Assembly: GCA_024679065.1 (NCBI GenBank)
Contig: JAGIQG010000010.1
Span: 74,462,001-74,526,000, forward strand
Length of the DNA: 64,000 nucleotides
Direction: 5' to 3'
Source of the DNA: Sphyrna mokarran
Lineage: Eukaryota
Every line of letters begins with the position of its first letter. Positions within the stretch are counted from its first letter, which is position 1. Below, piece by piece: positions 3,355 through 59,110 of this stretch. The position numbers were made by a program, and so were the translations under genes. The notes below the pieces were generated by a model. The model worked only from the letters and a program-made list of their open reading frames with translations. It had not been told where the DNA came from and did not search any database.

Positions 3355-4431
3355 AAAGAATTCTTCCTCATGGTTCCTCTGCCAATTTGATTTTCCAAAT
3401 CCACATAAAGATTAAAATCATGCTGACTTAATGTTACTTTTTTTCACATGTACAAATTATCTCTTGATTTATTCTCAGCCCTACAGTATAGCTATTGTTA
3501 GGAAGCCTATAGACTATTCCCATCAATGTTGTCTTCCCCTTGTTATTTCTTATCTCCATCCTTACGGATTCTACATCTTCTGATCCAAAATCATTTCTTG
3601 CTATCATACTTATTCATCCCGTATGAACAAATATACTCCACCATCCTTTCCTTCCTGTCTGTCCTTATGAAAAGTCATATATCCTTGAATACTTCATTCA
3701 CAACTTTCATGTAACCACGTCCCTGTAATGGCTAGAAGGTCAAATCCATTAACGTCATTTATGACATTAATTCATTTATTTTGTGCTGAATTTAAAGTGC
3801 ATTTAAGTGAAGCGCGTTTGCATTTTTGCATTCTTATCATTATTTATCCCTTGGACTCTCTTTGCTGCTTTTTTATGCTTGTACACTCTCCATTCCTGTT
3901 ACATTCTGGGCAGACTTAGGCTATTACCTAAATAGCATTCTTGCAATGCTGCATATCCTTTTGCTTTGTTAATCTATCAACTCCTCTCCAGGCCATCCCC
4001 CTGTCTGTTTAGTTTAGAGCCTTCTCTACTTCCCTAGTTATGCAGTTTGCAAGAACAGTGGGGTCAGCATGGTTCAGGCTGTCCCAACAGTACAGCCCCC
4101 AGGTTGATGTTCGTGCTCCGCAAATTGAAACCTACTTCTTTCACACCAGTCTTTGAGCCAGGTACTTCTCTCTCAAATTTTATATATTCTATGCCAATTC
4201 TCAAGTGGCTCAGCTAAAAATCCAGAGATCATAACCTTGGAGGTTCTTTGTTAAATTTAGTGCTGAGTTTCTCAAACACACTCTGCAGAACAACTCTCCA
4301 TTTATATCATTGATACTTACTAGGACCATGACAATGGAATCCTCCCCCTCCCACTGCAAATTCCTCTCCAGCTCAGAACAGATGCCTCAAACCCTGACAC
4401 TGGGCAAGCAGCACAGATGCCTGGATTCTGG

Positions 4432-4705
4432 CAGTGGTCCCTCACAGTGCCAGAGGTACAGGATCAATTCCTGACTTGGGTCACTATTTGTACAGAGTCT
4501 GCACATTCTCCCCAGGTCTGCATGGGTTTTCTCCAGATGTTTAGGTTTCCTCCCACAGTCCAAAAGACATGTTGGTCAGGTGCATTGGCCATGTTAAATT
4601 CTCCCTCAGTGTATCTGAAGAGGCGCCAGAGTGTGGCGAACAGGGGATTTTCACAGGCTTACATTAACACTGCAATGAAGCTACTGTTTGTGACTAATGA
4701 ATAAA
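4432..4705 (+). mobile_element. HE1/V-SINE-like SINE with tail type B, partly 5'-truncated
   Basis: V-domain core gcacattctcccc..tgcatgggttttctcc..ggtttcctcccacagtccaaaag. Tail gtgtggcgaacaggggattttcacag...gactaatgaataaa. Confidence 0.85.
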
Positions 4706-5263: not shown

Positions 5264-5438
5264 CACCAATATCATAACATTAATCATTGTCTCAAAGTGC
5301 AGTAATCACACAATTAAGAAGTGACTTTGATAAAACTCTTCTAATATATTGGAATGAAGGGTGCCTAATTGTGGAGATGTGAATTTTAGGTGATCTTAAG
5401 TTCATTTTAGAAATAAAGTGGAAGTCTAAATCTGGGAA
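5264..5438 (+). repeat. 175-bp local direct repeat, copy 1
   Basis: Aligns without gaps to 6016..6190; 6 mismatches counted by eye. Confidence 0.95.
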
Positions 5439-6015: not shown

Positions 6016-6190
6016 CACCAATATCATAACATTAATCATTGTCTCAAAGTACAGTAATCACACAATTAAGAAGTGATTTTGATAAAACTCTTCTAATATA
6101 TTGGAATGAAGGGTGCCTAATTGTGGAGATGTGAATTTTAGGTGATCTTAAGTCCATTTTAGAAATAAAGATGAACTCTAAATCTGGGAA
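6016..6190 (+). repeat. 175-bp local direct repeat, copy 2, abutting a LINE 3' end
   Basis: Matches 5264..5438 at an offset of 752 bp. Confidence 0.95.
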
Positions 6191-6850
6191 ATAAAGAAAA
6201 TAAAACACTGGAAGAGGCCCTCCGGCCATCCAAACCTGCACCGACCACGTTGCCCAACTTAATTAAAACCCCCTTCATTTCCAGAGACCATATTCCTCTA
6301 TTCCCATTTCATTCACGTACTTGTCAAGACATCCCTTAAAAGTCACTACTGTATCTGCTTCCACTACCTCTCCTGGCAACGAATTCCAGGCACTCATCAT
6401 TCTGTGTAAAAAGCTGCTTCATACATCTCTTAAAACTTGGTCCTTGCACTTTAAACCTATGCTCCCTAGTAATTGACTCTTCCACCCTAGAAAAAAGCTT
6501 CTGACTATCCACTCTGTCCATGCCTCTCATAATCTTGTAGATTTCTATCAGGTGGCCCATTGGCAGCCTCTCAACATTCATACTCTTAATACTCCTATTT
6601 GCCAAAAATCTTTCAATCTTGGATCTGAAATTTTAGCCTCAACAACATTTTGGGGGTGAGAAGATTGGCGTTTTCTTCTGTGAAGAGGTGCTTTATAACA
6701 TCACCATTACCTTGCTCAACTCTCAAGGTTACATCCCCTTCTTCTGGAATTTCCAAATAGCTTCTATTTACCCTGGCAGTACAATCCTTAAATCATGAAC
6801 ACCTCAATTAGATCCCCCACTTAATCTTCTATATTCAAGGGAATCCAAGA
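6191..6850 (-). mobile_element. CR1 LINE 3' end (6191-~6570) plus an older CR1 fragment
   Basis: ORF 6336..6605 gives LIEIYKIMRGMDRVDSQKLFSRVEESITREHRFKV, the CR1 ORF2 C-terminus. The 3' tail ggatggccggagggcctcttccagtgttttattttctttat ends at ~6191. Confidence 0.85.
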
Positions 6851-7639
6851 TTTATTGGAAAAAAAGCTTTTATTAATATTTTCTTTAAACTGTTAATCAT
6901 GAACTTGCCAGATAATTATTTGCAAAAGTTGCCAATGAATTAATATAAAATGTAAAACCCGGTCATTGACAAAAGCTGAAATGAAGACCGAAAATGCTAA
7001 ACATGTACAGCAGGTTCATTAATACCTGAAAGACAAAAGCCAATTAATATCACAGGCATTATGAAATACATCCTAAAAAGGAAATATTTTCAGGGCGAAT
7101 GGGGGAAGGGCATTGGGTCACATTGGAATGCTCTTTCAAAGAGTTAGCACTGGCATGATGGGCCAAATGATTTCCTTCTATGCAATTCCTACAATGCAAC
7201 TCTTATTATTTTAGGTATGACCGTTGATCAGGATTTATCTTGTGTTGTACCATTTCCACTGTTTATGCTTCAGCTTTCCAGTATAAACCATTTGTCATTA
7301 TTTAAACAGGTTTTGGAGACATGTAACACATTCTGAACTTCCTCACCATATTAGTTACAATGTCACTTTGTTAAATTAAGCAGTATCTGGTGTTTTAACA
7401 CATGGATTTTACTGGATGTAAACCAGAATTTGAAAATGAGTGTGCTAAAATATGTAATAATTTAAAATTTTAAAAATGCTCCAGTCATTGAAATTCACAT
7501 CATATCAGCTCTGACTGCATGAAGACAATGGCAACAATAGCTGCAAAACAGGATAATTTAAGTTTCACAGCTGGAAGAGCACCATCTACTGTTCCAAGTC
7601 AAACTAAATGATTAATATAGTTCTTATACTATGTACAGT

Positions 7640-7780
7640 TTTAGATGCTAAAGATGTCAAGAGATATAGGGAAAGTGTGAAAGCATGATGGAGAAAAAAA
7701 AACCAGCTATGATCATACTGAATGGCACAGGTGGCTCGAAGGGCCAAATGGCTTACTTTTCCTCCTATTTTCTATGCTAT
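7640..7780 (+). mobile_element. CR1 3' UTR/tail fragment
   Basis: ggctcgaagggccaaatggcttacttttcctcctattttctatg, a typical CR1 terminal stem-loop tail. Confidence 0.65.
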
Positions 7781-8624
7781 TAAGCTAGAGTCACTGGAAA
7801 ATCATCAAGTGAAACCATCTACTTAATTCTCCTTCTTGTCCTTTGACTATTTCCTTTTATAATTACCTCACAAATATTTTTCTAAATTGCTTTCACAACA
7901 ATATATTCCCTATCTCAATAGCCACTCAAAAAATATTGGGTGGTATTTAACGGAGAGTTCTTTTCTGTCAGTTGGAAAGTCAGTGAGAACCTGTGCTGTC
8001 ACTTTTATGGAAAGCCTGCCAAATTTCACGCAAATTAGGAATTTAGCTGGACATTGACAGGCCTTCTCCAGATTAAGGACTGGCAACTCGATTGTTGCCC
8101 ACACAATACCCACCTGAGGCCTAATATCTTATTTAGATCCCAGCTTACAGGTGAGTGATAGCAGGAGGAAGAGATATTAGGGTTGGGTTCATGGGAACAG
8201 GAATAGCAGCATGAGAAGGGATTAGCTCAGAACAGTCCCCAGCACACCCACTTCTGATACTGGGTCCCTCTATCAGACACCAAGTGAATGAATGAGGGGT
8301 CACTTCAGCAGCCCAGAAACAATTGTGCACGCAATTGTTTTTCATTCTCCCTGTATGGTGAGCTCCATGCCTACCAGCATTGGTGGTCTGAGGTCTTTAA
8401 AAGCCTCAGGCCTTCCCATCACAGACTTAATCAGAGTGAAGGTGACAAAGCAGCACACTCCTCACTCACCATCTCCTGCCCGATTAAATTCCCCACTAAA
8501 TGCCATCAAACTCGCCACAGGAAGAGTATCAAATCTGTCCAATTTGTTAAAAAATCCTTTTAATTTCCTCTCTCTGTTCTTATAGTAATAATCCTCAACT
8601 TGTGTCTCTTCACCAGCCAATGAA

Positions 8625-9446: not shown

Positions 9447-10012
9447 CAACCATTGATGATTATCCAACGCCTCTGTGAAGTGTTAATTTCACCAATTTAA
9501 TTTCATTAAATTTAAGTCCAAGTGTTTCAAAAAGAAACAAATACATGTGAACTCATTGATAGCTCATCGGAAATGGACTGTGAATAGCCGAGCTATACAA
9601 ATCAAGAGTTCGCATCGAACCCTCAGCTCTTTGAGATATTATGTTGATTTCAAGCCAGTGATCTTCGCATGAAAATTCCTGCTGGTAAAAGGCTGAAGTT
9701 TGAACTTGTAGTACAACATCAAACTGCTGTGATGCTCAGTAAACTGGTGATTCAAACTAAAGCATTAAGACTATCACATATATGAGATAGTAAAAAATTC
9801 CTTAGGCTATTGCCTTAAAGAGAAATGAAGAAAAATTGGGGTGGGAATAAATATCATTTGTTTGGAACATATAGAGTTAAGATGCTCCAAAAATAGGTAC
9901 AAAAAGTCATCTTTATCTGCTCTCTATGAACATTATCTTCACCTAAAAATATCCACTCCCAACTCATTCAGATTTCCCAAATACCTCCTGTGTGCAGACT
10001 TTCTTTTCTCCC

Positions 10013-11435
10013 ACGGTACTGGGACCTCTTCTATTTGTAATATATATAAATGACTTGGAAGAGGGAGTAAGTGGAGTGATCAGCAAGTTTGCAGATGATA
10101 CAAAGATGGCTGGACTTGCGGATAGTGAGGAGCATTGTCAGGCGATGCAGCAGGACATAGATAGGCTGGTAGCTTGGGCAGATAGATGGCAGATGGAATT
10201 CAATCCTGATAAATGCGAGGTGATGCATTTCGGGAGAAAGAATGTAGGGGGGAGGTATATGATAAAGGGTAGACCTATTAAGAGTATAGAAACGCAGAGG
10301 GACCTGGGGATGCAGGTGAACAAGTCTCTGAAGGTGGCAGAGCAAGTGGAGAAGGTTGTGAAGAAAGCATATAGTATGCTAGCCTTTATAGGAAGGGGTA
10401 TAGAGTACAAGAGCTGGCTTTTAATGTTGCAGTTGTATAAAACGTTAGTTAGACCTCATTTGGAATACTGTATCCAGTTCTGGTCGCCCTACTACTGGAA
10501 GGACGTGGAGAGACTGCAGAGGAGGTTTACCAGGATGCTGCCTGGTATGGCAGGTCTGAGTTACGAGGAGAGGTTAGGCAAATAGGGACTGTTTTCCTTA
10601 GAAAGACATAGACTTAGAGGAGATCTAATAGAGGTGTATAAGATTATGAGGGGTGTAGGTAGAGTAAACAGGGTTAAGCTTTTTCCTAGGATGGACTCGA
10701 ATAGCACGAGGGGTCATGGGCTTAGGGTGAGGGGGGTAATGTATAATTTGGATACTAGAGGGAGTTTTTTCACACAGAGGGTGGTGGTGGTATGGAATGC
10801 GCTGCCAAGTAAAGTGGTGGAGGCAGGTACTCTGGAGTTATTTAAGAAATACTTAGATGGGCACATGAACAGAATGGGAATTGATGGATATAGAAAACTG
10901 ATTTAAAATAGGGATCATGAGCCTTGGGAGTCCCTGGAAAGTGTGTAAATAGGTGATGATATTGATGTACTTGTTTTTATCCTACGGATGCTTTGGTCCA
11001 CCTTGTTGCCTAACAAGGAGCATACACGCGATGGGTCGTGAAAGGATTTTTTTCGAGAGTATCCTACTGCTTCATGCCATTAGTGCACGCTTGACCTGGA
11101 CCATTTGATGGGCAACGCGACAGCTCAGTGACTATTGCTGTGCTGTGCAGATACATGGATTTGGGCCCGTGTCTGTGGGAGTTTGCGCATTCTCCCCGTG
11201 CTTGCGTGGGTTTTCTCCGGGTGCTCCGGTTTCCTCCCACATACCAAAGATGTGCTCTCAGGCTAACTGGCAAAACAAATTCTCTCTAAATTGTCTCAAA
11301 TTTGGTTTTTAATCCATAGATCTATAAACATAGACAGGGATCATGGGTAGAGGTGGGAAAATCGGGGTGGCGGTGCGGGCTCGTTGGGCCGAAGGGCCTG
11401 TTTCCTGTGCTGTTTTGTTCTTTGTTCTCTTTGTA
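10013..11435 (+). mobile_element. Young 5'-truncated CR1 LINE (RT/C-terminal ORF2 plus ~530-nt 3' UTR containing a V-SINE body)
   Basis: ORFs 9992..10585 and 10634..10906 are the same frame, split by one TAG (10583-10585): VLGPLLFVIYINDL, KFADDTK, WQMEFNPDKC, VRPHLEYCIQFWSP, LRGDLIEVYKIM. The 3' end gggccgaagggcctgtttcctgtgctgt plus (ttgttct)-like repeats lies at ~11385-11435. Confidence 0.92.
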
Positions 11436-13566
11436 ATATCTATGGACCTGCCATTTTTCTGTTCTGCCAACAGTCTTTGAGATACCACAATCAGGCTTAT
11501 GCCATCACCCAAAGCATCAATATCTTGTTGGCCAATTATAAATGCAATGTGTGCTTGTGGCAGTAGTTTTTCTTTGCTTTTTAATTGCTTTGCAACCTCG
11601 ATATCTTTCTCAAATATTCTCATTCGTGCAACAAAGTTGAAGATTTATTTCCAGAAATAACACTTTTTGGGATACAGCGAATGAGTAATTTGAAACATGA
11701 CATGGTAAGTGTGCTATGGTTAGGTGTAACAGATAAGTTTGGACTTGTTCTCTAGCACTATGGCTTCTCTGCTGTTACTTTGGCTGATGTAGATCATGAG
11801 ATAAAGATTTGTCAACAACTCATTATAATTGCATCATGCAACTATCAGGATGATAGAAGATGAACAAGATGGATGTTGGTCTTTTTACTGTCAACCAATC
11901 CCGATGTTGGTCCTCTGTGACAATGTACATTGTGTTTGACAAGATAATTATGGATGAGAGACACCATTCCACTCATCTTAATTCATCCATTCAGAAATGC
12001 TGTATTACCCTAAATTTCACCATCAAATTATTTGTTGAAAGATTCCATCGTTTTTGCCCCTATTGTTGTCTTTAATATTTTGTGTCCATTTTTTCCATTC
12101 ATCATGAAGCACTAGGAGTCATCTGAAAAGGGATGAAATAATGCAGACCAATATACTTGAGGAAAATTATTAGTTTTTTTTTACTATTTTCACGCATTAA
12201 TTAAATGCCTTCTGCATTTTTGAGACAGAAATGGCATACCAAATAACTGGTGATAATTCACCAGTGTCAAATATAATGTGCAGGGAATGTGGAAATATCA
12301 GCAATGCCCCACTGGAGATCAAAAAGCAAATCCCAATGAGCTCTACCTCTACTCAGAAACCTGAGTAAGATGGGTCAATCACATAAATCTTAACTCAATA
12401 CATATCATGAAGTACAAAGTGGAGCTGCATCACCGTGCTTTAAAAGGAAAGCATTAACAACATATACTTATACCCAAGAATTCATTGTCTCACCAACAAA
12501 AAATATCATAACTGCTATAAACTGACCCATTAAAGCAACGTCTCCTTTGACAAAATGATTATAGCAAATATTCAAACATTTCCAACAGCAACTGAAAATG
12601 TTCCCATTGTCTGATTATATCAGTTTGACCATGCAAACATATTCACATTAGAGTAATTAAAAAGTTCACATGGGTTTGTTCATAACTATATGGACAGATT
12701 TGGATTCTTATCACTTATTAGTGAAAGGAAGCATTTCAAATTCTCTACTAATGTCAATGCAGAATTTCAGCCTGTTTGCACAGAAGTCGTCCATTTAATC
12801 CAACTTATTTAAAGAAATGGAACAAATTCCATTTAGGGATACCTGCAATTAATAGAACAGCATTCGAATGTCAAGGTAGTAGTATTAGAAGTCATTTTGC
12901 TAATGGAATTTATGAAAGAGAATAACTCACTCTGGCCGTAGTATGGCTCTTGTCAGATACTATTATTGTTTAAACTTTTGGACATTCATGTCCACATATT
13001 TGGCTGAAATGCCAGGGAAGATTGACTGCTCAAGCATCAGGAATCTGCTTTACACACATTAAGAAAACACAAAGGTCAACCTAATCTATCCATTCAGAGA
13101 CCGGGTCCTTTTTCACATAACAAACAGGATATTCTAGCCTGAGCTCTGCCACAACTGAAAGGTGGCATAATTGGCTCAGTCAAGCAAGATCCTTTCATTG
13201 AAAGCTTCTTTCACTGCATTAAAAGCTAACCAATTTCTTCCACACCATGGCACTGTGGAAATACTTCGCTGCTACAAATGAGGTAACAAAATTATGATCA
13301 CCTTGAATACAAATAATTGTCTACTGATCTTTTATTAATAATAAAGGGACAGCACGAAATTTTCAGGAGAAATTCATTTCCTCAAAGGAACTGGATATAT
13401 GAAAAAGCATGTGACAATTTTTAGAAAGGGCTGGAACGAGGGACATATTCATCACCACATCATTCATCACACTGTGATCACATGTATGGAGTATATTAGA
13501 ATGTATTACTATGACTTTTATTTTGTCACATCTTTGCAAAAGTTAGGAAATTATCTGAAAAACCAA

Positions 13567-13885
13567 TTGGTTCACTAACGTAATTTATGAAAGACAGCTG
13601 CCCGCTATGGCTATGCTATGCCTCCTGTCACGTTGTATGTTGATTGACTCTTGATGATCTCAGTCCGAAAGTCATGCTGGTCAGCTGCACTGGCCATGCT
13701 AAATTCTTCCTCAGTGTACCTGAACAGGCACTGGAATGTGGCAGCTCGGGGATTTTTACAATAACTTCATTGCGTTGCCAATGTAAGCCAACTTGTGACA
13801 TTAATAAACTTAAGCTTAATTAGGAATGAGCAATAAAAACTGCCTTGCTACTGTCATCCACATTCCATAGACAAATTTAAAAAAC
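13567..13885 (+). mobile_element. LINE-derived 3' tail interrupted by a V-SINE 3' fragment (tail B, ~13660-13812)
   Basis: ggttcactaacg...gactctt and aattaggaatgagcaataaaaactgccttgc...aaaaaa flank ggccatgctaaattc...aacttcattgcg...aatgtaagccaacttgtgacattaataaact. Confidence 0.65.
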
Positions 13886-13924
13886 ATCCTGAAGTCATAC
13901 TGTCAATGTAGTCAATAATCTTAC

Positions 13925-14097
13925 CTGCAGCAGATGACAGCTTTACAAGACAAAGCCAGATCTAAAAATGAGCGACGGACTTCAAAAGACAGTGCGTAGT
14001 TCAACGTGTGCCCATCTATAATGAGGGCAAGTTCGTTCTCTTTATTCAAGGACTCACCTAGGTCCTCACAATGACGAGTAAGTGTTTCCCTGGTTGC
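13925..14097 (-). CDS. ATP8A2: Internal coding exon (173 bp, phase 0 to 2) of a P4-ATPase phospholipid flippase, ATP8A2-like
   Basis: The minus strand reads gtttatttttcag|GCA ACC AGG...TGC TGC AG|gtaag. It translates to [57 protein letters not shown](R), the ALIIDG...AVICCR segment of ATP8A. GHTL and SFEVRRSF match ATP8A2 rather than ATP8A1 (GKTL, TFGVRQYF) as I recall the human proteins. Confidence 0.93.
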
Positions 14098-15777
14098 CTG
14101 AAAAATAAACAAATACATTATGAATAATCTTGATATTAGAGGGATAAGTGCTGGAGTTGTCAGCAAATGAGTGGTATTCAACTATTGGGTGAAGTGAAGT
14201 TGGAGGAAGTTCCAAGTGATGCAAATCCAAGGACACATTGTTCTCTCTTGCAAATAATAAGTGGTTATAAGGGAGGTTACAGTGATTTCTGTTGACTTTG
14301 GAGGCTTGCAGAATTTGGGGAGGAACATGTGTCCCAACGCTGAAGGGTCTAAGATTCAAATTTTGGTTACCATCTCCCAATGTTGAGAGTGTATGTTTTT
14401 AGAAAGTATATCTTTGTGAAGTCATCTCAAATGATGATGGTGCCACTCATTCTCCTTGTTTTCTTCCCCCATAAATAAAACATTGGGAGCTGCAGCTGCA
14501 GCCACTAATCCTGAGGGACCACTGTTAACTTCTGAAGAGGGAGGGAGAGTTCTGCGAATGCAGCATCACCTCCTTGTCCTGCACCTAGCGTAAGCACAGA
14601 TGCATATATCTTAGTAGGTATGAATGAATTGGCCCTAAGGGATCCACACACGCAATACAGATACATCACAGTCATCTGACCAGCAGTAAGAGACCAAGAT
14701 ACAGAAGGTCTAGAGCAGTCATTGGAATGCTGAAGGAGGGATGAATGCTGAGCTCCACGCTGATGAAAAGTCTCTGGAGAGATCTGTCAGACAGGAGGTG
14801 CTGGATGTAGAGCATGAGGCATGGGAAGCTGTGGCTGAGACTGCGTGCACTAACATGGACAGTGAATATATCCACACCATTACAGTGATCTTCAGAATGC
14901 ATGGCTTCCTCTACTGAGACTTGCGACTGTCATGGAAAGCGAAACCCAGCAGCTGGATATCAGGTATGTGTTCTGATTTGACATCTTTGCCTCATCTCTA
15001 ATCTCCAGTGCCTCAAGCTAGAGCCAGAACATGGCAAGATTGCCTCACATCACATCCAAGTCCTGGCTCCTTTAAGGAAAACAGGGAGGGCAAAATGAAT
15101 GTAGCTTCCATTGGGAGGGACATCTCTCGGGTGCTTCTAAGGGGGGAGCCTCTCCTTCATCTCTTCTCCATTGATACAAAATGCCTCAGAGTGCTGCACT
15201 GATAGAATAGCCTCCTGCCACTATGCAGGTGACTCCTGTAACGCTGGGATGCTCACATCCCAAGGCTGCCTTAGCAGCCCACAGGCTTCAGTTCCAGGCC
15301 CGCTAATAAATGCAAATTAAATTTCCATACTGAAACCAATTCCACACCAACATCAGGTGCAGATCTAATGACATTGAAAATCCTGGTTGCGGAGATGTGC
15401 TGAGGATCTGACACTCACTGGGAAGTCCACAAAATGGTTGCCCCTGATGTCTCCAGCCTGCTGCATCATACAAGTAGGGCAGCAAGCTAGGAGAACTGCC
15501 CTCCTGGAGTTATGTCATTTTCACGCTGAATAGTCAGTTAGTAGGGTAGTCCTTTGCTTACCTCTGGGTGCCTGACATTGCGTCTGCCCTCTGCATCTCT
15601 TGCACAGTAGCATATTGAACTACATGAACAATGGTCTCCTACAGAATGAACAATGCTGGAGTGCATAAACTTAATAGCAGCAATTTCTGAATGTCCCCTT
15701 CTCTGCTAAAATATCAGGCTGAACAGCATGAGATTCTCTCACCTTTTTTCAGCCACTGTCCTGCTTTGAGATTTTAT

Positions 15778-17504: not shown

Positions 17505-17667
17505 CTCTTTTCGATGGTGTGGTGAGACTTCTTAACATTGATCAAAAGCCATTTCTTTTTCTCCAAAAAATTCCACAAATATTTGATTCTGTCTCTTCCC
17601 TCAATTTCTAAAACTTTGCCTTTGGATACTGGGACTAACTCAGATGCATTAAGATTGTATCATGTTA
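17505..17667 (-). mobile_element. Continuation of a Gypsy gag in inverted orientation
   Basis: The minus strand reads LNASELVPVS/RQSFRN*GKRQNQIFVEFFGEKEMAFDQC (cf. LxAYELVPEAYRQKFRN...TYVEFAREKExxFDRW). Confidence 0.7.
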
Positions 17668-17913
17668 TACAGTAATTGGCAGAACTCTTAAGAGTATTGC
17701 TATGCAAAGGGATCTGGGTACACAAGTACACAGATCACTAAAAGTGGCAATCCAGGTGCAGAAGGCAGTCAAGAAGACATACAGTATGCTTGCCTTTATC
17801 TGCCAGGGCATCAAGTATAAAAATTGGCAAGTCATGTTGCACCTTTATAAAACCTTAATTAGGCCACACTTGGAATACAGTATTCAATTCTCGTTGCCAC
17901 ACTACCAGAAGGA
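17667..17913 (+). mobile_element. CR1 ORF2 fragment
   Basis: ORF 17702: QRDLGTQVHRSLKVA...LYKTLIRPHLEYSIQFSLPHYQKD. Confidence 0.88.
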
Positions 17914-18172
17914 TGGCACAGAGATCAGCACTGCTGCCTCACAGCAGCAGGGATCTGGGTTCGATTCTCGGCTCGGGTCACTGCCTGTGCAGAGGTTGTA
18001 TATTCTCCCCATGTCAGCGTAAGTTTCCTCGCACAGTGCAAATAATATGCTAGTTAGGTGCATTGGCCATGCTAAATTCTCCTTCAGTGTACCTGAGTGT
18101 GGTGACTAGGGGGTTTTCACAGTAACTTAATTGTGAATGTAAGCTTACTTGTGAAACTAATACTTAAACTTT
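17914..18172 (+). mobile_element. HE1/V-SINE-like SINE with tail type B
   Basis: tRNA-like head with B box ggttcgattct, a V-core remnant, and tail gtggtgactaggggg.ttttcacagtaactt...aatgtaagcttacttgtgaaactaat. Confidence 0.85.
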
Positions 18173-18276
18173 AAAAAACTATCTCCCTCTTGCACTCCAT
18201 GCAAGTGCAGCCCCTAAAATGCACAGGTTTTAACATGCTGGGGCTGAGCTTCATAGCTGTCCAACACTGCTGATAT

Positions 18277-18861: not shown

Positions 18862-19638
18862 GAGGTGATTCTCCCAAAAAAAATTCTAAGTGTTGGATTT
18901 ATGTAGAAACTGGAGTAAATCACTCTGGTTTTTCAGAGGGCATTTCAAAATGAATCTCCATACTCTGTGCACTGCAGAGTGCACTCGTGTGAATCAGTCC
19001 AAAAGCTGGGGGTGGGGCCTATTCTTGCCTGAGAGGCTGGCAGCATAGCACCGAGTGGGCCACTGTGCATGGTCCGATCTGTCAGTACCAAGATCAGCGC
19101 ATGTGCAGTGGCCCCTTTCTGTCAGCCTCCTGATTGCTGGCCAGCCCCTTGTCAGCTGTGCAACCCTCACCCCCAATAATCACATGCCAGAGGCTTTTCC
19201 TTCCATCAGGCTCTATTTCTATGGCACTGCCTTTGCTTGGTGGGCAGTGCCAAGTGTCCCTTAGGCATTGGTGTTTTGCCCTTTGGTCAGTGCCAGGGGC
19301 TTAGGATGACACTGCCAAGATGGCAATGTCCAGGGGCACCACCCCTCCCTTCCTGATCTCTGGTTGGGGGGGGGGGGGGGGTCTCAGTTGCCCCCCCTCC
19401 CCCCTTTACTCCAGTGGGGTCAGACTTCCAGCTTTCCACAAGTGAGCAGTTTCAGTCCTGGGCCTGCCGACGGCTTGCATACGTTATGAGCTTTGTGTCG
19501 ATTTCCAGCATGGAGCTGACCGCGCTGGAAGTTCAGCTGCTGGAGATGTGCGGAGACCATGGTACCCAGTAGGGAGACTGCCAGTCATGGCCTGCAGCAT
19601 TACGAAAGCAGTGCAGCGGGCTGGGAGAACAGACCCCC
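18862..19638 (+). mobile_element. GC-rich MITE (PIF/Harbinger-type)
   Basis: TIRs gaggtgattctccca / tgggagaacagaccccc, with TTA target duplication at 18859-18861 and 19639-19641. Confidence 0.8.
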
Positions 19639-29230: not shown

Positions 29231-29505
29231 GGGCCACACGGTAGCACAGTGGTTAGCACTGCTGCTTCACAATGCCAGGGATCCAGGTTCGATTCCCAGC
29301 ATGGGTCACTGTCTGTGTCGTTCTTCCTGTGTCTGCATGAGTTTCTTCAGGATGCTTCCATTTCCTCCCACAGTCTGAAAGGTGTGCTGGTTAGGTGGAT
29401 TGACCCAAACAGGCACTGGACTGTGGCAAATAGGGAAATTTCACAGTATTTCACTTCATTGCAGTGTTAATGTAGGCCTTATTTGTGATTAATAAATAAA
29501 CTTTA
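29231..29505 (+). mobile_element. Near full-length HE1/V-SINE-like SINE with tail type B
   Basis: A box tagcacagtgg, B box ggttcgattcc, V core, and tail cacttcattgcagtgttaatgtaggccttatttgtgattaataaataaacttt. Confidence 0.9.
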
Positions 29506-29584
29506 TTTCATTTTGTTCCAGGAGAATACATACCCGAGAGAAATATGTCCGGCTTTTAGACAGTCAGATGTTGAGCAGTTTTTT

Positions 29585-31530: not shown

Positions 31531-32914
31531 TCCATTTTAACCTAGTTTATTACAAAACTCACATTCCTAACAACAACTCAGATTTATGTGACAACAATTT
31601 TGCATTTACTTTCTACCACTGTAAAAAATATATTGATGTTGTTCCTTTGGAGAACATTCTGATGTCTTTGAATTTAATTTCGTCTTCTATATTCAGAACA
31701 ATCAAGGAATAATTTCCTCAATCACAGGTGCTTTTGCAAAATTCTACTTCATAGAGCATTAAAACATTCATCATTCACTGCATGACCACACAAACACAGC
31801 ACAATTTTAGCGAAGCTAAACTCCTGAAAAGTGCATAACTTTGTGTTCGTCTGAAGAAACTGACTTTAAAATCAAACTGACTCTTGGGTCAGCACACAAG
31901 ACGATCATGTTGTACAGTGTTACTAAGTTATCCATTCAATAATACTATTTCCCTGTTCAAAAGGCAGAGCTATTTCTGAACTGTAGACCTAGCCTCTGCC
32001 ATTATCAACATTCACTAATTTCCGATTTATAGAGGAAACAGCCATTTACAGGTCAAGGCACATTAAGATTGATTTACCAGCCCGTGGAATCACACAAATT
32101 GCTAATAATAAAGCACATTAGTGGAGAAAGACTCAGCCTTTGCATAATAAAATATTTTCCCTCTAATTTCCAGAAATTAGTACATTCAGAAATATCACAG
32201 TTCCAAGAGCACTGTGCAGGACGCAATACATTGATATTTAACAAAACACGCTTAAAAATAATCAACAAATGTCTTTAGGATCTTCCCTCCAAATGCATTG
32301 TATAACAAATGGTTTCAGGATGTTGATTGATCATCAATATGCTAAAAATTAGTTTTCACAAAATGTGTTTTACCAGACATGTTCAGTGACAATAGCATAC
32401 AACCCAAGTGAAATCCTTTGAATTACATCTCACTCACAAGAAATTATAATATCAGGAGCTTCGTGCAATCACGAACTGGCTGATTGTATTTCCATTCAAC
32501 TTGCTGATCACATGAAATTAAAGACAAATAGGGACTGAAGCTGGACTCCCAGTAAATTCAGGACAGCTGCAGAGGAAAACGTGTTAAAAGAATAATTGTA
32601 CAATGAAACATGGAAGAAAATTGCTTCAGAAATGTGATGTAGTGACACATGAGCAATCTGCAAAGTATCTTTGGAAACCAACTTAAGAATTCAAACAAAA
32701 CCATTACAAACAAAAATGCTAAAACCGACACAATCAATTATGTTTTCACAAGAAATAATTGAGTATAATTTGTACAGGCACTTCCTAGGGCAAAATGGAT
32801 TTTCACTCCTAATATAAAATCAAAATAGGATTAGCATTCTGGTTTCTATTAGGAGAGAGAATATCATTATGGAAACCCTGTTTCACTCTACAAGGAACTC
32901 AATGAATTGTAAGT

Positions 32915-33065: not shown

Positions 33066-34914
33066 GACATCTCATTGAGCAAATTGTCGATCTACTTCAC
33101 ACATCATAAATGTCCTGCCAAAGTCAAAGTCAACGGACATTTGAACAGCTTGTGTATTTTATAGCATTGCACCTACTGCGATGGGACAATAAAATTCTAT
33201 CTGAGATGATATTCACCAGTTATACATGATAGTTAACTTAATTCTTCAGCAAACATATATACACAGGATATGCCAACAGTGATACTGACCTTAACAGGTC
33301 CATGACATATAGGGAAATGCTAGAAATCAAACTGACAATTTGTGATTTAAAATGGTGGATTGATGATGAATCAACAGAAACCATTTGTTATACAATGTGT
33401 TTGGAGAGAAGATCCTAAAGACATTTGTTGATTATTTTTAAGCATGTTTTGTTAAATGTCAATGTATTGCAACCTGCACATAGTATATTTCATATAACCA
33501 GTCTTTCTCTCCCCACAGAAAGAGGAGAGCTGTTGTGTAATTGGCAGGAATGCCAAATCTATTAAGTCTTGTCTAGCTAATTCTGAACATCTAAACGTGA
33601 GAGGTATTAACAAGTGTGCTTTTATATTTCCTTCTTCTCATTTCACTTACAATTGGGATTTTATAGTTAGTATTTTTCTTACTGACCACTGCACATTTCT
33701 ATCACAGATGTGTTTTGAATGAAATGCCTTAATGTGCTTTAATGATCCTTTCGGTAGGAGTTTTTCATTCCAGTAACTAGATTTGATTCTCCTGAAGGTT
33801 ATATTAAATACCAGCACAATATTTGCACTCTTTTAGGTTTGCTTACAATATGAAATTATTCTTCTTGGCTGCTGATATAATATTGATTTGATTAGCTAAT
33901 CAGCTAATTAAAATGCAGCAGTGAAGATTGGTTCAGAAACCCATTACAATGGTTTTCCAAAATGAAACAAAAATGTCAGGTTGATTTCTGCTAACTGCAC
34001 TTTGTCATATTTTTAAAAATTATTTTCCTTTGTAGCTTTGAATCAAGTGCCTTCTGCGCAGGGCAGAACAGAATGAATAACAGAAGCAGGTGCAGGATTA
34101 GCTTCTTCGACAACCTTTCCTGACATTAAGCTCATACGTTTTTATAAAAACAGTTCTCCTGTTCAGGAGTTCAAGTTAAGTAATTCCTTAAAATGAGTAA
34201 ATAGCAGTAAACATTATTCAGAAAGAAGGAGGAACGTGTTAAAATAAAGTTTTGCAGAGCCAAGAAATCAAACTTTCAAATTGTGCAAAAAGCTGAAGTT
34301 TTTCAATTATGCAAGAACATACTGTGCACCACCTAATCTGGATCCAAGAGCAAAACAATTAGGAGGTGACCACAGGATAGGTTAAGAATGGATATTTCAC
34401 CCACAGTGTCCTCAGACTGCAAGAAAGGATCTTTCATCAGTGATCCAAATTTGACAAATCACTGTTATCAACTAGAGTTGCCACATCATGTCTAAACTCA
34501 TTAACTTCAACAATTTATGCCTGATTCAACAAAGGCTAAGCATCCATACAATATTTGTGGTGACTTTTCAATAGATTGTAAAATCTACTTAGAGAGGTCT
34601 TAAGGCTCAGTGGGTAGCAGCTCTGCCTCGGAGCTCGGAGTAATCAAATTGTACTGTACAAACATAGGCTTCTGAACAAAAATCTTAATTTGCATGTATT
34701 CTTGGGATAACACATGAAATTCAGGATATTTGTTCAGTAGTCTTAGTTCTAATGAAGTCGTCACACTAATGTTCTTGTGATTCGGACACCAGGACACACA
34801 TCCTTCTCCATTTAAATAGTATGCTGCTTTGCTATTTTTCCTGCCAAACTTCACATTTCCCCAGGCATAATGGCCCATTCACTTAACCTATCCGTATTCC
34901 TTTGCAGACTTTAT

Positions 34915-44411: not shown

Positions 44412-44850
44412 ACAAAGAACAAAAAGAACAAAGAATAAAACAGCATGGGAAACAGGCCCTTTGGCTCAACGAGCCCGCGCCGCCACCCCGATGTTCCCAC
44501 TTCTACCCGTGATCCCTGTCTATGTTTATAGATCTATGCATTGAAACCAAATTTGAGACAATTTAGGGAGAATTTGTTCTGCCAATTAGCCTAAGAGCAC
44601 ATCTTTGGGGACGTGGGAGGAAACCAGAGCACCTGGAGAAAACCCACACAAGCACAGGGAGAATGTGCAAACTCCCATAGACACAGGCCCATGTATCTGC
44701 ACAGCACAGTGATAGTCACTGAGCTGTCGTGTTGCTCATCAAATGGTCCAGGTCAAGCGTACAGTAATGACGTGAAGCATTAGGACACTCAAAAAATCCA
44801 AGAGCAGCCCTCTCACGACCCATCGCGTGTCTGCCCCTTGTTAGACAACA
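44412..44850 (-). mobile_element. Second copy of the composite CR1-3'UTR/V-SINE unit (homologous to 11004..11435)
   Basis: The reverse complement aligns co-linearly from tgttg(t/c)ctaacaagg through cgcttgacctggaccatttgatg, the V core and ctaaattgtctcaaatttggttt to the (ttgttct)n tail. Confidence 0.92.
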
Positions 44851-49079: not shown

Positions 49080-49760
49080 CTGCTTTACTGTGCAGTGATA
49101 TTCTTCTGTTATGTTAAGTCTGACATTTTGTTTTCTCTTCAGATATTTATAGCTTTCTCCAACATGAAATCCACTTTTCCCAAAAACTGCTCTCTCAGAG
49201 TATCATTTGTGGTCCTGCAAATTATTCTACCTTGGATGGATGATTCTTCAAGCTCTCTAAATTCACATGATTTAGTTTATTTTATAAACATACTGACTAA
49301 TGTTATCACTGCCTTGTGTGCATGTAAAAAAATTTGCATCCCTCATGCGTGTTTCTTTTTTAAGGAGTATAGTAAGCTTTGAATTTTTCCACTTTTTTTT
49401 CTCCAAGTAATTTCGCTTCTCATCATCTTTAAATGCAAATGTGTTATAAACTTCCAGGGCTTCTTCCTCTGCAATGTGAAGGAAGATGGAAAACTCTCAT
49501 TACTACCCATCGCTGTGATGTACAGCTCAAAGTGCTGCCAAAATCTCCCCCAGTTTTCTCTGAGATTGCCCTCCAAACTGAGCTCTATTGGTGGTTTCAG
49601 AACCTCCATTGTTATATTTAGTTCACTTCCAACACCATGTCTTGTTTTGAAGTCGCAGGGTGGCCAACACCATTGCTGTAAACCAATCAATTACATAACA
49701 ATTAATAACAGGTCATGAACATACAACTGCAAGGCATCTGCTGTCTTGTTCCAGGAGGAA
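49080..49760 (-). mobile_element. Gypsy LTR-retrotransposon remnant: LTR end, PBS and gag
   Basis: The minus strand reads ...agaCA|TGGTGTTGGAAGTG (PBS-like, 49637..49624), then MEVLKPPIELSLEGNLRENWGRFWQHFELYITAMG and, further on, CKFFTCTQ...SCEFRELEESSIQGRIICRTTNDTLREQFLGKVDFMLEKAINI. Confidence 0.75.
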
Positions 49761-55403: not shown

Positions 55404-55715
55404 GGACAGCACAGTGTTACAGTGATTAGCATTGTCATCTCACAGCACCAGGGACCCAGGTACAATTTCGGCCTCGGTCACTGTCTGTGAAGAGTTTGCA
55501 CATTCTCCCTGTGTCTGCGTGGCTTTCCCTGGGGTGCTCTGGTTTCCTCCCATAATGCAAAGATGTGAGGGTTAGGTTGAATGACCATGCTAAGTTGACT
55601 CTAGTGTCAGGGGGATTAGCAGGGTAAATGCATGAAGTTACAAGAATAGGGTCTGAGTGAGATTGCTGTCAGTAAGACACGATGGGCCAAATGGGCTTCC
55701 TTCTGTTCTGTAGTT
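55404..55715 (+). mobile_element. HE1-like V-SINE with a CR1/HER1-type tail (tail type A)
   Basis: tRNA-like head, full V core, and tail acacgatgggccaaatgggcttccttctgttctgtag. Confidence 0.9.
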
Positions 55716-58554: not shown

Positions 58555-59110
58555 AAAATCCCTCGAGCCTACTCCATTATTCAATAAGCTCACGTTTGAT
58601 CTTCTATCTCAACTTCACTTTCCCATCTTATGCCAGTCTCCCTCTGGTCCCTTAGTATAGAACATAGAATGCAAAAGTGCAAAAGGAGGCTATTCAGCGC
58701 ATCAAGTCTGCACCGGCCAAGTTCCAATCCCCATTAATCCTCTGTACTTACCTTAGCTAGTCCCCCTGACATGAAAAGGTAATTTAGCATAACCAATCAA
58801 CCGAACCTGCAATCTTTGGACCGTGGGAGGAAACCCACACAGATACAGGGAGAATGTGCAAACTCCACACAGACAATCACCCAAGCCAGGAATCAAACCT
58901 GGGCCTGTGAGGCACCAGTGCTAACCACTACGCCATCATGCTACCCAAAAAGTATCCAAACCTCTGTTAAGGGATCTTAAAGATTGAGAATTTACAGCTG
59001 TCTGGGATAGAGAAAAAAAACCCCTTTGACTGACAAAATTTCGCCTCATTCAATTCTGAATGGCTTATCCCTTATCTGGAGAGTATGTTACCCAAATCCA
59101 GACTCTCCTA
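58555..59110 (-). mobile_element. CR1 3' fragment interrupted by an HE1-like SINE (58660..58947, minus strand, tail A)
   Basis: SINE reverse complement: gggtagcatgatggcgtagtggttagcactgg...V core...gacttgatgcgctgaatagcctccttttgcac. agtat occurs on both sides (58655-58659, 58951-58955). Confidence 0.8.

What the first reader, a model, noticed from the sequence alone, without database searches (positions are those of the whole stretch)
10013..11435. CR1 LINE whose 3' UTR appears to have captured a V-SINE
Seen: after the ORF2 stop (10906) there is no CR1 tail. Instead there is ~200 nt of unique UTR, then a decayed tRNA-like head (gggcaacgcgacagctcagtgac, ~11110; A-box remnant, no B box). A well-preserved V-domain follows (gtgtctgtgggagtttgcgcattctccccgtgcttgcgtgggttttctccgggtgctccggtttcctcccaca, ~11169-11241), and only then the CR1-type stem-loop tail. 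Known: HE1 SINEs borrow their 3' end from HER1/CR1 LINEs, so sequence normally flows from LINE to SINE. Inference: here an autonomous LINE uses a captured SINE as its terminus, keeping the V-domain while losing the Pol III promoter. This hints that the V-domain, whose function is unclear, benefits retrotransposition itself. The ORF has only one stop and a short deletion, and CpGs are retained, so the family looks young.
Basis: partly seen in the sequence, partly recalled or inferred. Interest (0 to 1): 0.75.

Follow-up and report, generated by a model that had tools for sequence, protein, structure and literature searches.

The report
Shark LINE carrying a captured SINE
A jumping gene in a shark-like genome appears to have absorbed the remains of one of its own parasites into its tail end, the reverse of the usual direction, though a second full copy proving this has not been seen and no benefit is shown.

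Summary
The anatomy is real. A 5'-truncated CR1 ORF2 (10013-10906) is followed by about 200 nt of UTR, a tRNA-like head without a B box, a V-domain-like block and a CR1-type tail ending at 11435. Indirect evidence favours one retrotransposing unit. A database relative (P0003, 85% identical) ends ORF2 with the same unusual six residues, so the stop is a subfamily trait and not a break. No tail lies in the spacer or the 3' flank. A second copy (44850-44412, minus strand) starts 105 nt upstream of the head, shares the B-box loss and carries a T6-7 run, so it reads as a truncated LINE copy rather than a Pol III SINE. The ORF2 and UTR ages agree (about 3% decay each). No second copy joining ORF2 to the V-domain could be reached, so family status is about 80% likely, not proven. 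The claim that the V-domain helps the LINE is unsupported: 2 of 5 ordinary SINE copies show the same V-over-flank conservation. Whether the terminal tail came from the SINE or is the LINE's own is unresolved. New variant of a known kind; interest 0.5.

The parts
10013..10906 (+). 5'-truncated CR1 ORF2 (end of RT to C-terminus); one internal stop at 10583-10585, 3-codon deletion near 10505-10513; subfamily-specific C-terminus ending GYRKLI
10907..11003 (+). 97-nt spacer, inferred proximal 3' UTR; no second copy seen, no tail similarity
   Evidence: protein searches with its open frames found nothing related
11004..11109 (+). UTR segment shared with copy B (91/101 identical), upstream of the tRNA-like head; holds a T7 run at 11047-11053 (T6 in B); weak post hoc hint of an old tail remnant in its first 60 nt
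11110..11168 (+). decayed tRNA-like SINE head: 5' half kept, A-box remnant 11121-11131, B-box region deleted near 11155
11169..11241 (+). V-domain-like conserved block (63/73 matches to the majority base of 5 ordinary SINE copies)
11242..11345 (+). post-V segment: first ~50 nt still SINE-homologous (29/47), the rest shared only with copy B
11346..11435 (+). CR1-type 3' tail with small hairpin at 11386-11398 and imperfect TTCTTTG terminal repeats
44412..44850 (-). copy B: covers A 11004-11434, 381/420 aligned sites identical, same B-box loss; read as a 5'-truncated copy of the same LINE

Best explanation
This is a 5'-truncated genomic copy of an elasmobranch CR1 subfamily whose master RNA has a long (~530 nt) 3' UTR containing the remains of a V-SINE. 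The LINE is transcribed by Pol II from its own 5' promoter (inferred, not in the window). ORF2 protein binds the CR1-type hairpin and repeats at 11346-11435 and starts target-primed reverse transcription there (established for stringent L2 LINEs; inferred here). Copies are therefore complete at the 3' end and cut at random on the 5' side: A stopped inside the RT region and B stopped inside the UTR. Most likely origin (inferred, roughly even odds against the other routes together): an ancestral copy read through into a same-strand V-SINE downstream whose tail its ORF2 protein could still recognise, and the longer RNA became a master. Other routes are a template switch, or SINE insertion into the UTR upstream of the LINE's own tail. 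The Pol III promoter, no longer needed, then decayed. The V block is most likely a passenger.
For: (1) The ORF2 end is a family trait. Of 245 fetched proteins, 49 carry the terminal GY-type motif in their last 30 residues: 38 end 8 residues later, 4 end 4 later, 4 end 1 later and 3 end otherwise. P0003 ends in the same RKLI as A. In a tree built without the variable end, A groups with P0003 and P0022 (100/98), inside a clade holding all four GY+4 proteins (97/92) (50 of 245 proteins chosen by me, ~115 columns). (2) The first tail after the stop is at 11346-11435, and there is none in the spacer or 3' flank. Six of the 10 other CR1 fragments in the window carry a tail directly after the last coding sequence they retain; the other 4 matched only upstream parts. 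(3) Copy B begins 105 nt upstream of the head, lacks the B box as A does, and has a T6 run about 55 nt after its start. Runs of four or more T act as Pol III terminators, context permitting (PMC4758252 section 11). (4) Ages agree. A has 8 private amino-acid changes in 123 columns, giving a non-CpG decay of ~3% (compatible range ~1.5-5%). A versus B gives 27/378 non-CpG differences, ~3.6% per copy (2.4-5.2%) if split equally. (5) The chance that one of two such units starts within 100 nt of a given stop on the same strand is ~0.0016, before allowing for the finding having been picked for this adjacency.
Against: No second DNA copy with ORF2 joined to the V-domain was found, and the spacer 10907-11003 was seen nowhere else (none of these collections holds shark genomes as DNA). 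One copy B cannot separate random truncation from a fixed 5' end. A locus-specific CR1/V-SINE fusion on one strand exists in the same window at 17666-18176, so such joins do arise singly. No full-length ORF2 of this subfamily was found; the best long relatives are 63-67% identical, so autonomy is inferred. The hint of an older tail in 11004-11060 is weak: profile p 0.02-0.03 and post hoc, pairwise test p 0.24-0.40, and many genomic tiles score higher. Tail folding is not better than shuffles (z -1.1 and -1.3). No target-site duplication was found for A or B.
Confidence: 0.78

Rival explanations
1. Single-locus chimera. An independent non-autonomous element of about 430 nt was joined to a CR1 copy at this site only, by template switching during reverse transcription or by insertion with loss of the LINE's real tail.
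For: Copy B exists without ORF2. A CR1 fragment fused directly to a V-SINE occurs at 17666-18176. The spacer has no second copy. Template switching and recombination are accepted routes of module exchange (PMC4758252 passages).
Against: The 430-nt unit has no B box and an early T6-7 run, so it has no evident promoter of its own. No leftover LINE tail lies on either side. The ages of the two halves agree. The SINE fused at 17912 keeps a perfect B box and a different tail, unlike A and B.
Confidence: 0.14
2. One unit, but the terminus is the LINE's own tail: only the SINE head, V block and a short post-V piece were recombined or inserted into the UTR. This is a sub-case of the main reading with a different origin.
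For: SINE homology fades after about 11290 (19/42 matches in the next segment). The tail core matches CR1 tails (27-28/45) about as well as SINE tails (26/45, 29/44).
Against: Two ordinary V-SINE copies in the window do end in CR1-type tails, and the single best match to A's tail core is one of them. The weak upstream tail remnant would favour read-through.
Confidence: 0.3
3. One unit in which the V-domain is kept by selection because it raises LINE RNA stability, packaging or reverse transcription.
For: A matches the ordinary-SINE majority at 63/73 V sites but at 57/90 head and post-V sites (p 0.001); B at 62/74 and 61/90 (p 0.02). The B box was deleted right up to the V block.
Against: Ordinary copies show the same trend (231/264 against 286/377; individually significant in 2 of 5), so a donor SINE from another family would explain it. 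A and B are not independent. A versus B identity is flat across modules (90-92%).
Confidence: 0.2
4. The V-domain is native to the LINE UTR and SINEs took it from there (a LINE origin of SINE bodies).
For: LINE-derived SINE middles are documented for RTE and Vingi 5' UTRs (PMC5786205).
Against: The block is preceded by a tRNA-like head remnant. The subfamily sits among CR1s with the common longer C-terminus. V-SINEs range from vertebrates to cnidarians (PMC4824008 passages), far older than this clade.
Confidence: 0.03

Closest known systems
HER1 LINE / HE1 V-SINE pair of sharks and rays (Ogiwara et al. 1999, 2002; seen only as cited in PMC3747384 table and PMC4824008 passages)
   Same: CR1-type ORF2, tRNA-like head, conserved V-type block and a LINE-type tail shared between LINE and SINE.
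   Different: Here the SINE modules sit inside the LINE's 3' UTR, the B box is gone, and the ORF2 C-terminus is 4 residues shorter than the common elasmobranch form. Identity to the HE1 or HER1 consensus was not tested.
Elasmobranch CR1 consensus families of PMC13343379 (e.g. ScyCan_CR1, CarCar_CR1 series)
   Same: Same superfamily and host group. Named relatives come from Mustelus, Hypanus, Leucoraja, Stegostoma, Mobula and Chiloscyllium.
   Different: Passages read mention no SINE in a 3' UTR (1 occurrence each of 'SINE' and 'UTR'). The consensus cells are cut at 400 characters, so their 3' ends could not be inspected; this family may be among them unremarked.
LINEs with SINE-like or tRNA-like pieces in Repbase: Ingi-3_AC (possible recombination with a Ceph-SINE) and RTE-1_DAn (PMC5786205)
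   Same: Possible SINE-to-LINE sequence flow.
   Different: Ingi-3_AC involves the 5' UTR and an RTE-derived piece; the RTE-1_DAn case is a tRNA-like sequence only. The paper says no sequence similar to conserved SINE bodies has been found as their source.
3' UTR replacement in mammalian L1 (PMC5753468 passage) and L1 3' transduction (recalled)
   Same: LINE lineages swap or extend their 3' UTRs with unrelated sequence.
   Different: L1 uses relaxed poly(A) recognition. CR1-group LINEs need a cognate hairpin, so an extension must end in a compatible tail.

Membership tests
CR1 LINE (vertebrate canonical CR1) | ORF2 with RT domain grouping with vertebrate CR1s | tested here: met
   RVT_1 E 2e-8; 57-66% identity to named elasmobranch relatives over this region; tree of the C-terminal region
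CR1 LINE (vertebrate canonical CR1) | 3' hairpin plus short terminal repeats, no poly(A) | tested here: met
   26.8 bits against a profile of 8 other tails, p 0.001; TTCTTTG-type repeats in A and B; folding energy itself not significant
CR1 LINE (vertebrate canonical CR1) | Endonuclease domain, ORF1 and 5' promoter (autonomy) | not testable with these tools
   copy is 5'-truncated at 10013; no full-length subfamily member among 120 listed longer hits
CR1 LINE (vertebrate canonical CR1) | Short 3' UTR, tail within ~100 nt of the stop, as in the other copies in this window | tested here: not met
   tail lies 440-530 nt after the stop; this marks a variant, not exclusion from CR1
V-SINE / HE1 (for 11110-11435) | tRNA-derived head with working A and B boxes | tested here: not met
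   5' half homologous (p 0.02 in A, 0.001 in B), A box 2 mismatches, B-box region deleted in both; no Rfam or ARAGORN tRNA call, but none for the ordinary SINEs either
V-SINE / HE1 (for 11110-11435) | ~80-bp V-domain | tested here: inconclusive
   73-86% identical to the conserved block of 5 ordinary SINE copies; the published consensus could not be compared; label recalled
V-SINE / HE1 (for 11110-11435) | 3' tail shared with partner CR1 (HER1) | tested here: met
   CR1-type tail; whether SINE-derived or the LINE's own is unresolved
V-SINE / HE1 (for 11110-11435) | Independent insertion with 5' end at the head | tested here: not met
   2 of 2 copies carry at least 105 nt upstream of the head
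Multi-copy LINE subfamily with V-SINE in its UTR | Several genomic copies with ORF2 contiguous to the V block | not testable with these tools
   no shark DNA collection available; indirect support only

The most novel reading that the evidence does not exclude
An autonomous elasmobranch CR1 lineage captured a V-SINE by read-through, adopted the SINE's tail as its own terminus, lost the Pol III promoter, and has kept the V-domain under selection across sister subfamilies (the whole short-C-terminus clade). That would be the first conserved SINE domain inside a self-mobilising LINE, where its role can be assayed in cis.
Probability: 0.17. Interest if true: 0.78.

Novelty: new variant of a known kind. 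Interest (0 to 1): 0.5.

Why it matters
The function of conserved SINE central domains is an open question, with three competing models (PMC5499810 introduction). A Repbase-wide LINE/SINE comparison reported LINE sources only for RTE- and Vingi-derived middles (PMC5786205). A LINE family that carries a V-domain would show SINE-to-LINE flow and give a natural construct in which the domain can be deleted without touching a Pol III promoter. In practice, short 5'-truncated copies of such a LINE, like copy B, would be miscounted as SINEs in shark repeat annotation. If the V block is only a passenger, this is a neat but modest case of 3' UTR replacement.

Tried and rejected
Searches for other copies of the UTR. 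A natural open frame over 10953-11105 gave no candidates. A frame over 10918-11079 against 1.84 billion representatives gave 5 hits, all repetitive proteins at 30-38% identity, rejected as chance. A 22-nt motif in bacterial and archaeal genomes gave 0. An ORF2 profile there gave 6 pattern matches, 1 relative and 0 loci returned. Plasmid and phage records gave no match. None of the 120 longer relatives matched beyond 10940, and none of the first 120 hits beyond 10933. The cluster look-up could not be made.

Rfam found nothing meaningful in 9500-12000 or for any SINE head in the window, so no known small-RNA head was detected at 11004 (insensitive test). Old-tail remnant: not significant by pairwise score, marginal by profile; kept as a lead only. 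A chance break at the ORF2 stop was rejected because of P0003. SINE insertion with the LINE tail left downstream was rejected because the flank has no tail signal (only 105 nt tested by profile, 205 nt pairwise). Target-site duplications: none convincing.

Literature: 10 searches showed no listing that describes a CR1 with a V-SINE in its 3' UTR; three of them returned 0-1 papers because of strict terms. Repbase, Dfam, SINEBase and the Ogiwara papers could not be consulted. Supplements: PMC13343379 consensus 3' ends were cut off; PMC4824008 file 1 was not searchable; PMC9826928 had no matches. Unseen supplements may bear on novelty.

Full report
Setting. The window is elasmobranch-like. The ORF2 relatives with names come from sharks and rays at 57-66% identity over this region, higher than bird and turtle CR1s. 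The element lies on the plus strand, opposite an exon at about 13924-14100 that matches a solved phospholipid-transporting P4-ATPase (6k7g_A, E 1e-22). It is therefore probably intronic and antisense. The species was not determined.

Observation. ORF2 runs from 10013 to a TAA at 10904-10906, with one internal stop and a 3-codon deletion. A profile built from 8 other CR1-type tails in the window, which also recovered two untrained tails near 7106 and 7701, finds a tail at 11346-11435 (26.8 bits, p 0.001). It finds none in the spacer or the 3' flank. Between stop and tail lie a 97-nt spacer seen nowhere else, a 105-nt segment shared with a second copy, the 5' half of a tRNA-like head with the B-box region deleted, a block 73-86% identical to the conserved middle of five ordinary SINE copies, and a post-V stretch whose first ~50 nt are still SINE-like. 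The A- and B-box consensus motifs and the name 'V-domain' are recalled. The founding paper is not held, so the block was compared only with SINEs in the window.

Is it one unit? The second copy, B (44850-44412, minus strand), covers 11004-11434 with 381/420 aligned identities. It does not start at the head, as a tRNA-derived SINE should, but 105 nt upstream. It shares the B-box loss, and it has a T6 run about 55 nt in (T7 in A). Such runs act as Pol III terminators, depending on context (PMC4758252, first part of section 11 read). B is therefore hard to explain as a Pol III SINE and easy to explain as a LINE copy truncated inside the UTR.

Independent support comes from proteins. Among 120 listed relatives of the ORF2 C-terminus (243 found), P0003 is 85% identical and ends in the same unusual residues as A. 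In a census of all 245 fetched proteins, 49 had the terminal motif. Of these, 38 end eight residues later, 4 end four later, 4 end one later and 3 end otherwise. A tree of 50 of these proteins, which I chose for closeness and spread, was built without the variable end. It joins A with P0003 and P0022 (100/98) and holds all four short-ended proteins in one clade with A (97/92). So the sequence right after the conserved motif was remodelled in an ancestor of the clade, the stop at 10906 is original, and the LINE's UTR begins at 10907. Other lineages also have altered ends, so 3' remodelling recurs in shark CR1s.

Ages agree. A has 8 private amino-acid changes in 123 columns, which simulation puts at about 3% non-CpG decay (1.5-5% compatible). 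A versus B gives 3.6% per copy (2.4-5.2%), assuming an equal split; B lost 8 CpGs to A's 4, so it may be the older copy. Other CR1 fragments in the window are far more decayed.

What speaks against. No DNA copy joining ORF2 to the V block was reachable. Searches with two natural UTR frames, a motif and an ORF2 profile in prokaryotic genomes, and plasmid and phage records were blank or gave chance hits. These collections hold no shark genomes as DNA, so the blanks say little. The same window has a CR1 fragment fused to an ordinary V-SINE at 17666-18176, showing that single-locus chimeras occur, although that SINE keeps its B box and has a different tail. No full-length ORF2 of the subfamily was found, so autonomy is inferred. 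I put one unit at about 0.78 and a single-locus chimera at about 0.14.

How it works. Shown: the order of parts, the family-specific stop, the shared promoter loss and a CR1-type tail. Established for related LINEs: ORF2 protein recognises a cognate 3' stem-loop (PMC4176376, abstract and outline only; zebrafish L2 elements). Inferred: a Pol II transcript of the whole LINE ends at the 11435 repeats, is primed there, and is copied leftward until truncation. The capture most plausibly arose by read-through into a downstream same-strand V-SINE with a compatible tail. A faint tail-like stretch at the start of the shared segment would fit this, but it is marginal (p 0.02-0.03, post hoc; not significant) and lies about twice as far from the ORF2 end as tails in ordinary copies. 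The terminal tail cannot be assigned to SINE or LINE. Its 45-nt core in A matches one SINE tail at 29/44, two CR1 tails at 27-28/45 and the other seven tails at 19-27/45. 'Uses the SINE as its terminus' is therefore possible but not shown.

Does the V-domain help? A and B match the ordinary-SINE majority better in V than in head plus post-V (63/73 against 57/90, and 62/74 against 61/90). Ordinary copies show the same trend (231/264 against 286/377), significantly in 2 of 5, because V is the part shared between SINE families. A donor from a family not present in the window would give this pattern without any selection in the LINE. I give the selection reading about 0.2.

Comparison with what is known. 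HE1 is listed as the V-SINE of sharks and rays with HER1 as its partner (PMC3747384 table and PMC4824008 passages). Kojima 2018 (PMC5786205, parts 1-4 of 5 read) compared Repbase LINEs and SINEs. It found LINE-derived SINE middles only from RTE and Vingi, noted a possible Ingi/Ceph-SINE recombination in a 5' UTR, and says no source sequence for conserved bodies has been found. How well Repbase then covered sharks I could not check. The 2026 CR1 survey (PMC13343379, passages and parts of its supplement) lists many shark CR1 consensus sequences whose 3' ends I could not see. PMC5499810 (introduction, part 2 and passages) sets out three models for conserved domains, one being LINE interaction. 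PMC11481361, PMC7245038, PMC5753468, PMC10468316 and PMC2911107 were seen as passages only, and PMC9826928 as a supplement search only. Ten searches showed no listing that describes this structure, but Repbase, Dfam and subscription journals were out of reach, so it may be catalogued without comment.

Verdict. This is probably a real CR1 subfamily with a V-SINE remnant in its 3' UTR, a new variant of a known kind. The functional claim is untested. Interest 0.5; about 0.78 if selection on V inside the LINE were shown (probability about 0.17).

Noticed in passing
window 17666-18176 (+): An older CR1 ORF2 fragment (67% to P0144 over 83 aa) is fused directly to a V-type SINE that keeps its B box and has a non-CR1, AT-rich tail; a single-locus LINE/SINE chimera or nested insertion.
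   Followed up: partly
window 4431-4687, 13661-13821, 17912-18176, 29244-29507 (+) and 55419-55700 (+), 58650-58937 (-): Two V-type SINE families share head and V block but differ in tail: four copies end in an AT-rich non-CR1 tail and two in a CR1-type tail, an example of tail exchange.
   Followed up: partly
window 13924-14100 (-): Exon of a P4-type phospholipid-transporting ATPase (match to 6k7g_A, E 1e-22); the element is antisense to this gene.
   Followed up: partly
window 32213-32338 and 33359-33480: 126-bp inverted repeats, 90% alike, bounding about 1.27 kb; possibly a non-autonomous DNA transposon.
   Followed up: no
window 5264-5438 and 6016-6190: 175-bp direct repeats, 96.6% alike, 750 bp apart, abutting the tail of the CR1 copy at 6190-6680; a recent local duplication or LTR-like pair.
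   Followed up: no
window 49343-49690 (-): Open frame whose middle resembles the start of a Gypsy-type gag (recalled resemblance, not tested).
   Followed up: no
window ~7106-7200 and ~7701-7790 (+): Two further CR1-type tails from very short, heavily truncated copies.
   Followed up: partly
proteins P0144, P0148, P0153: CR1 ORF2 proteins 62-67% identical to this region are labelled with bacterial species names on contigs of 1.6-3 kb; probably vertebrate DNA contaminating bacterial assemblies.
   Followed up: no
proteins P0011, P0012, P0023, P0160, P0153, P0154, P0159, P0174: A second clade of elasmobranch-type CR1s also has shortened or altered ORF2 ends, so 3'-end remodelling has happened more than once; their UTRs would be worth inspecting.
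   Followed up: partly
window 19281-19424: A hairpin-forming stretch gave several weak microRNA-model matches, all far below gathering scores; probably low-complexity chance.
   Followed up: no
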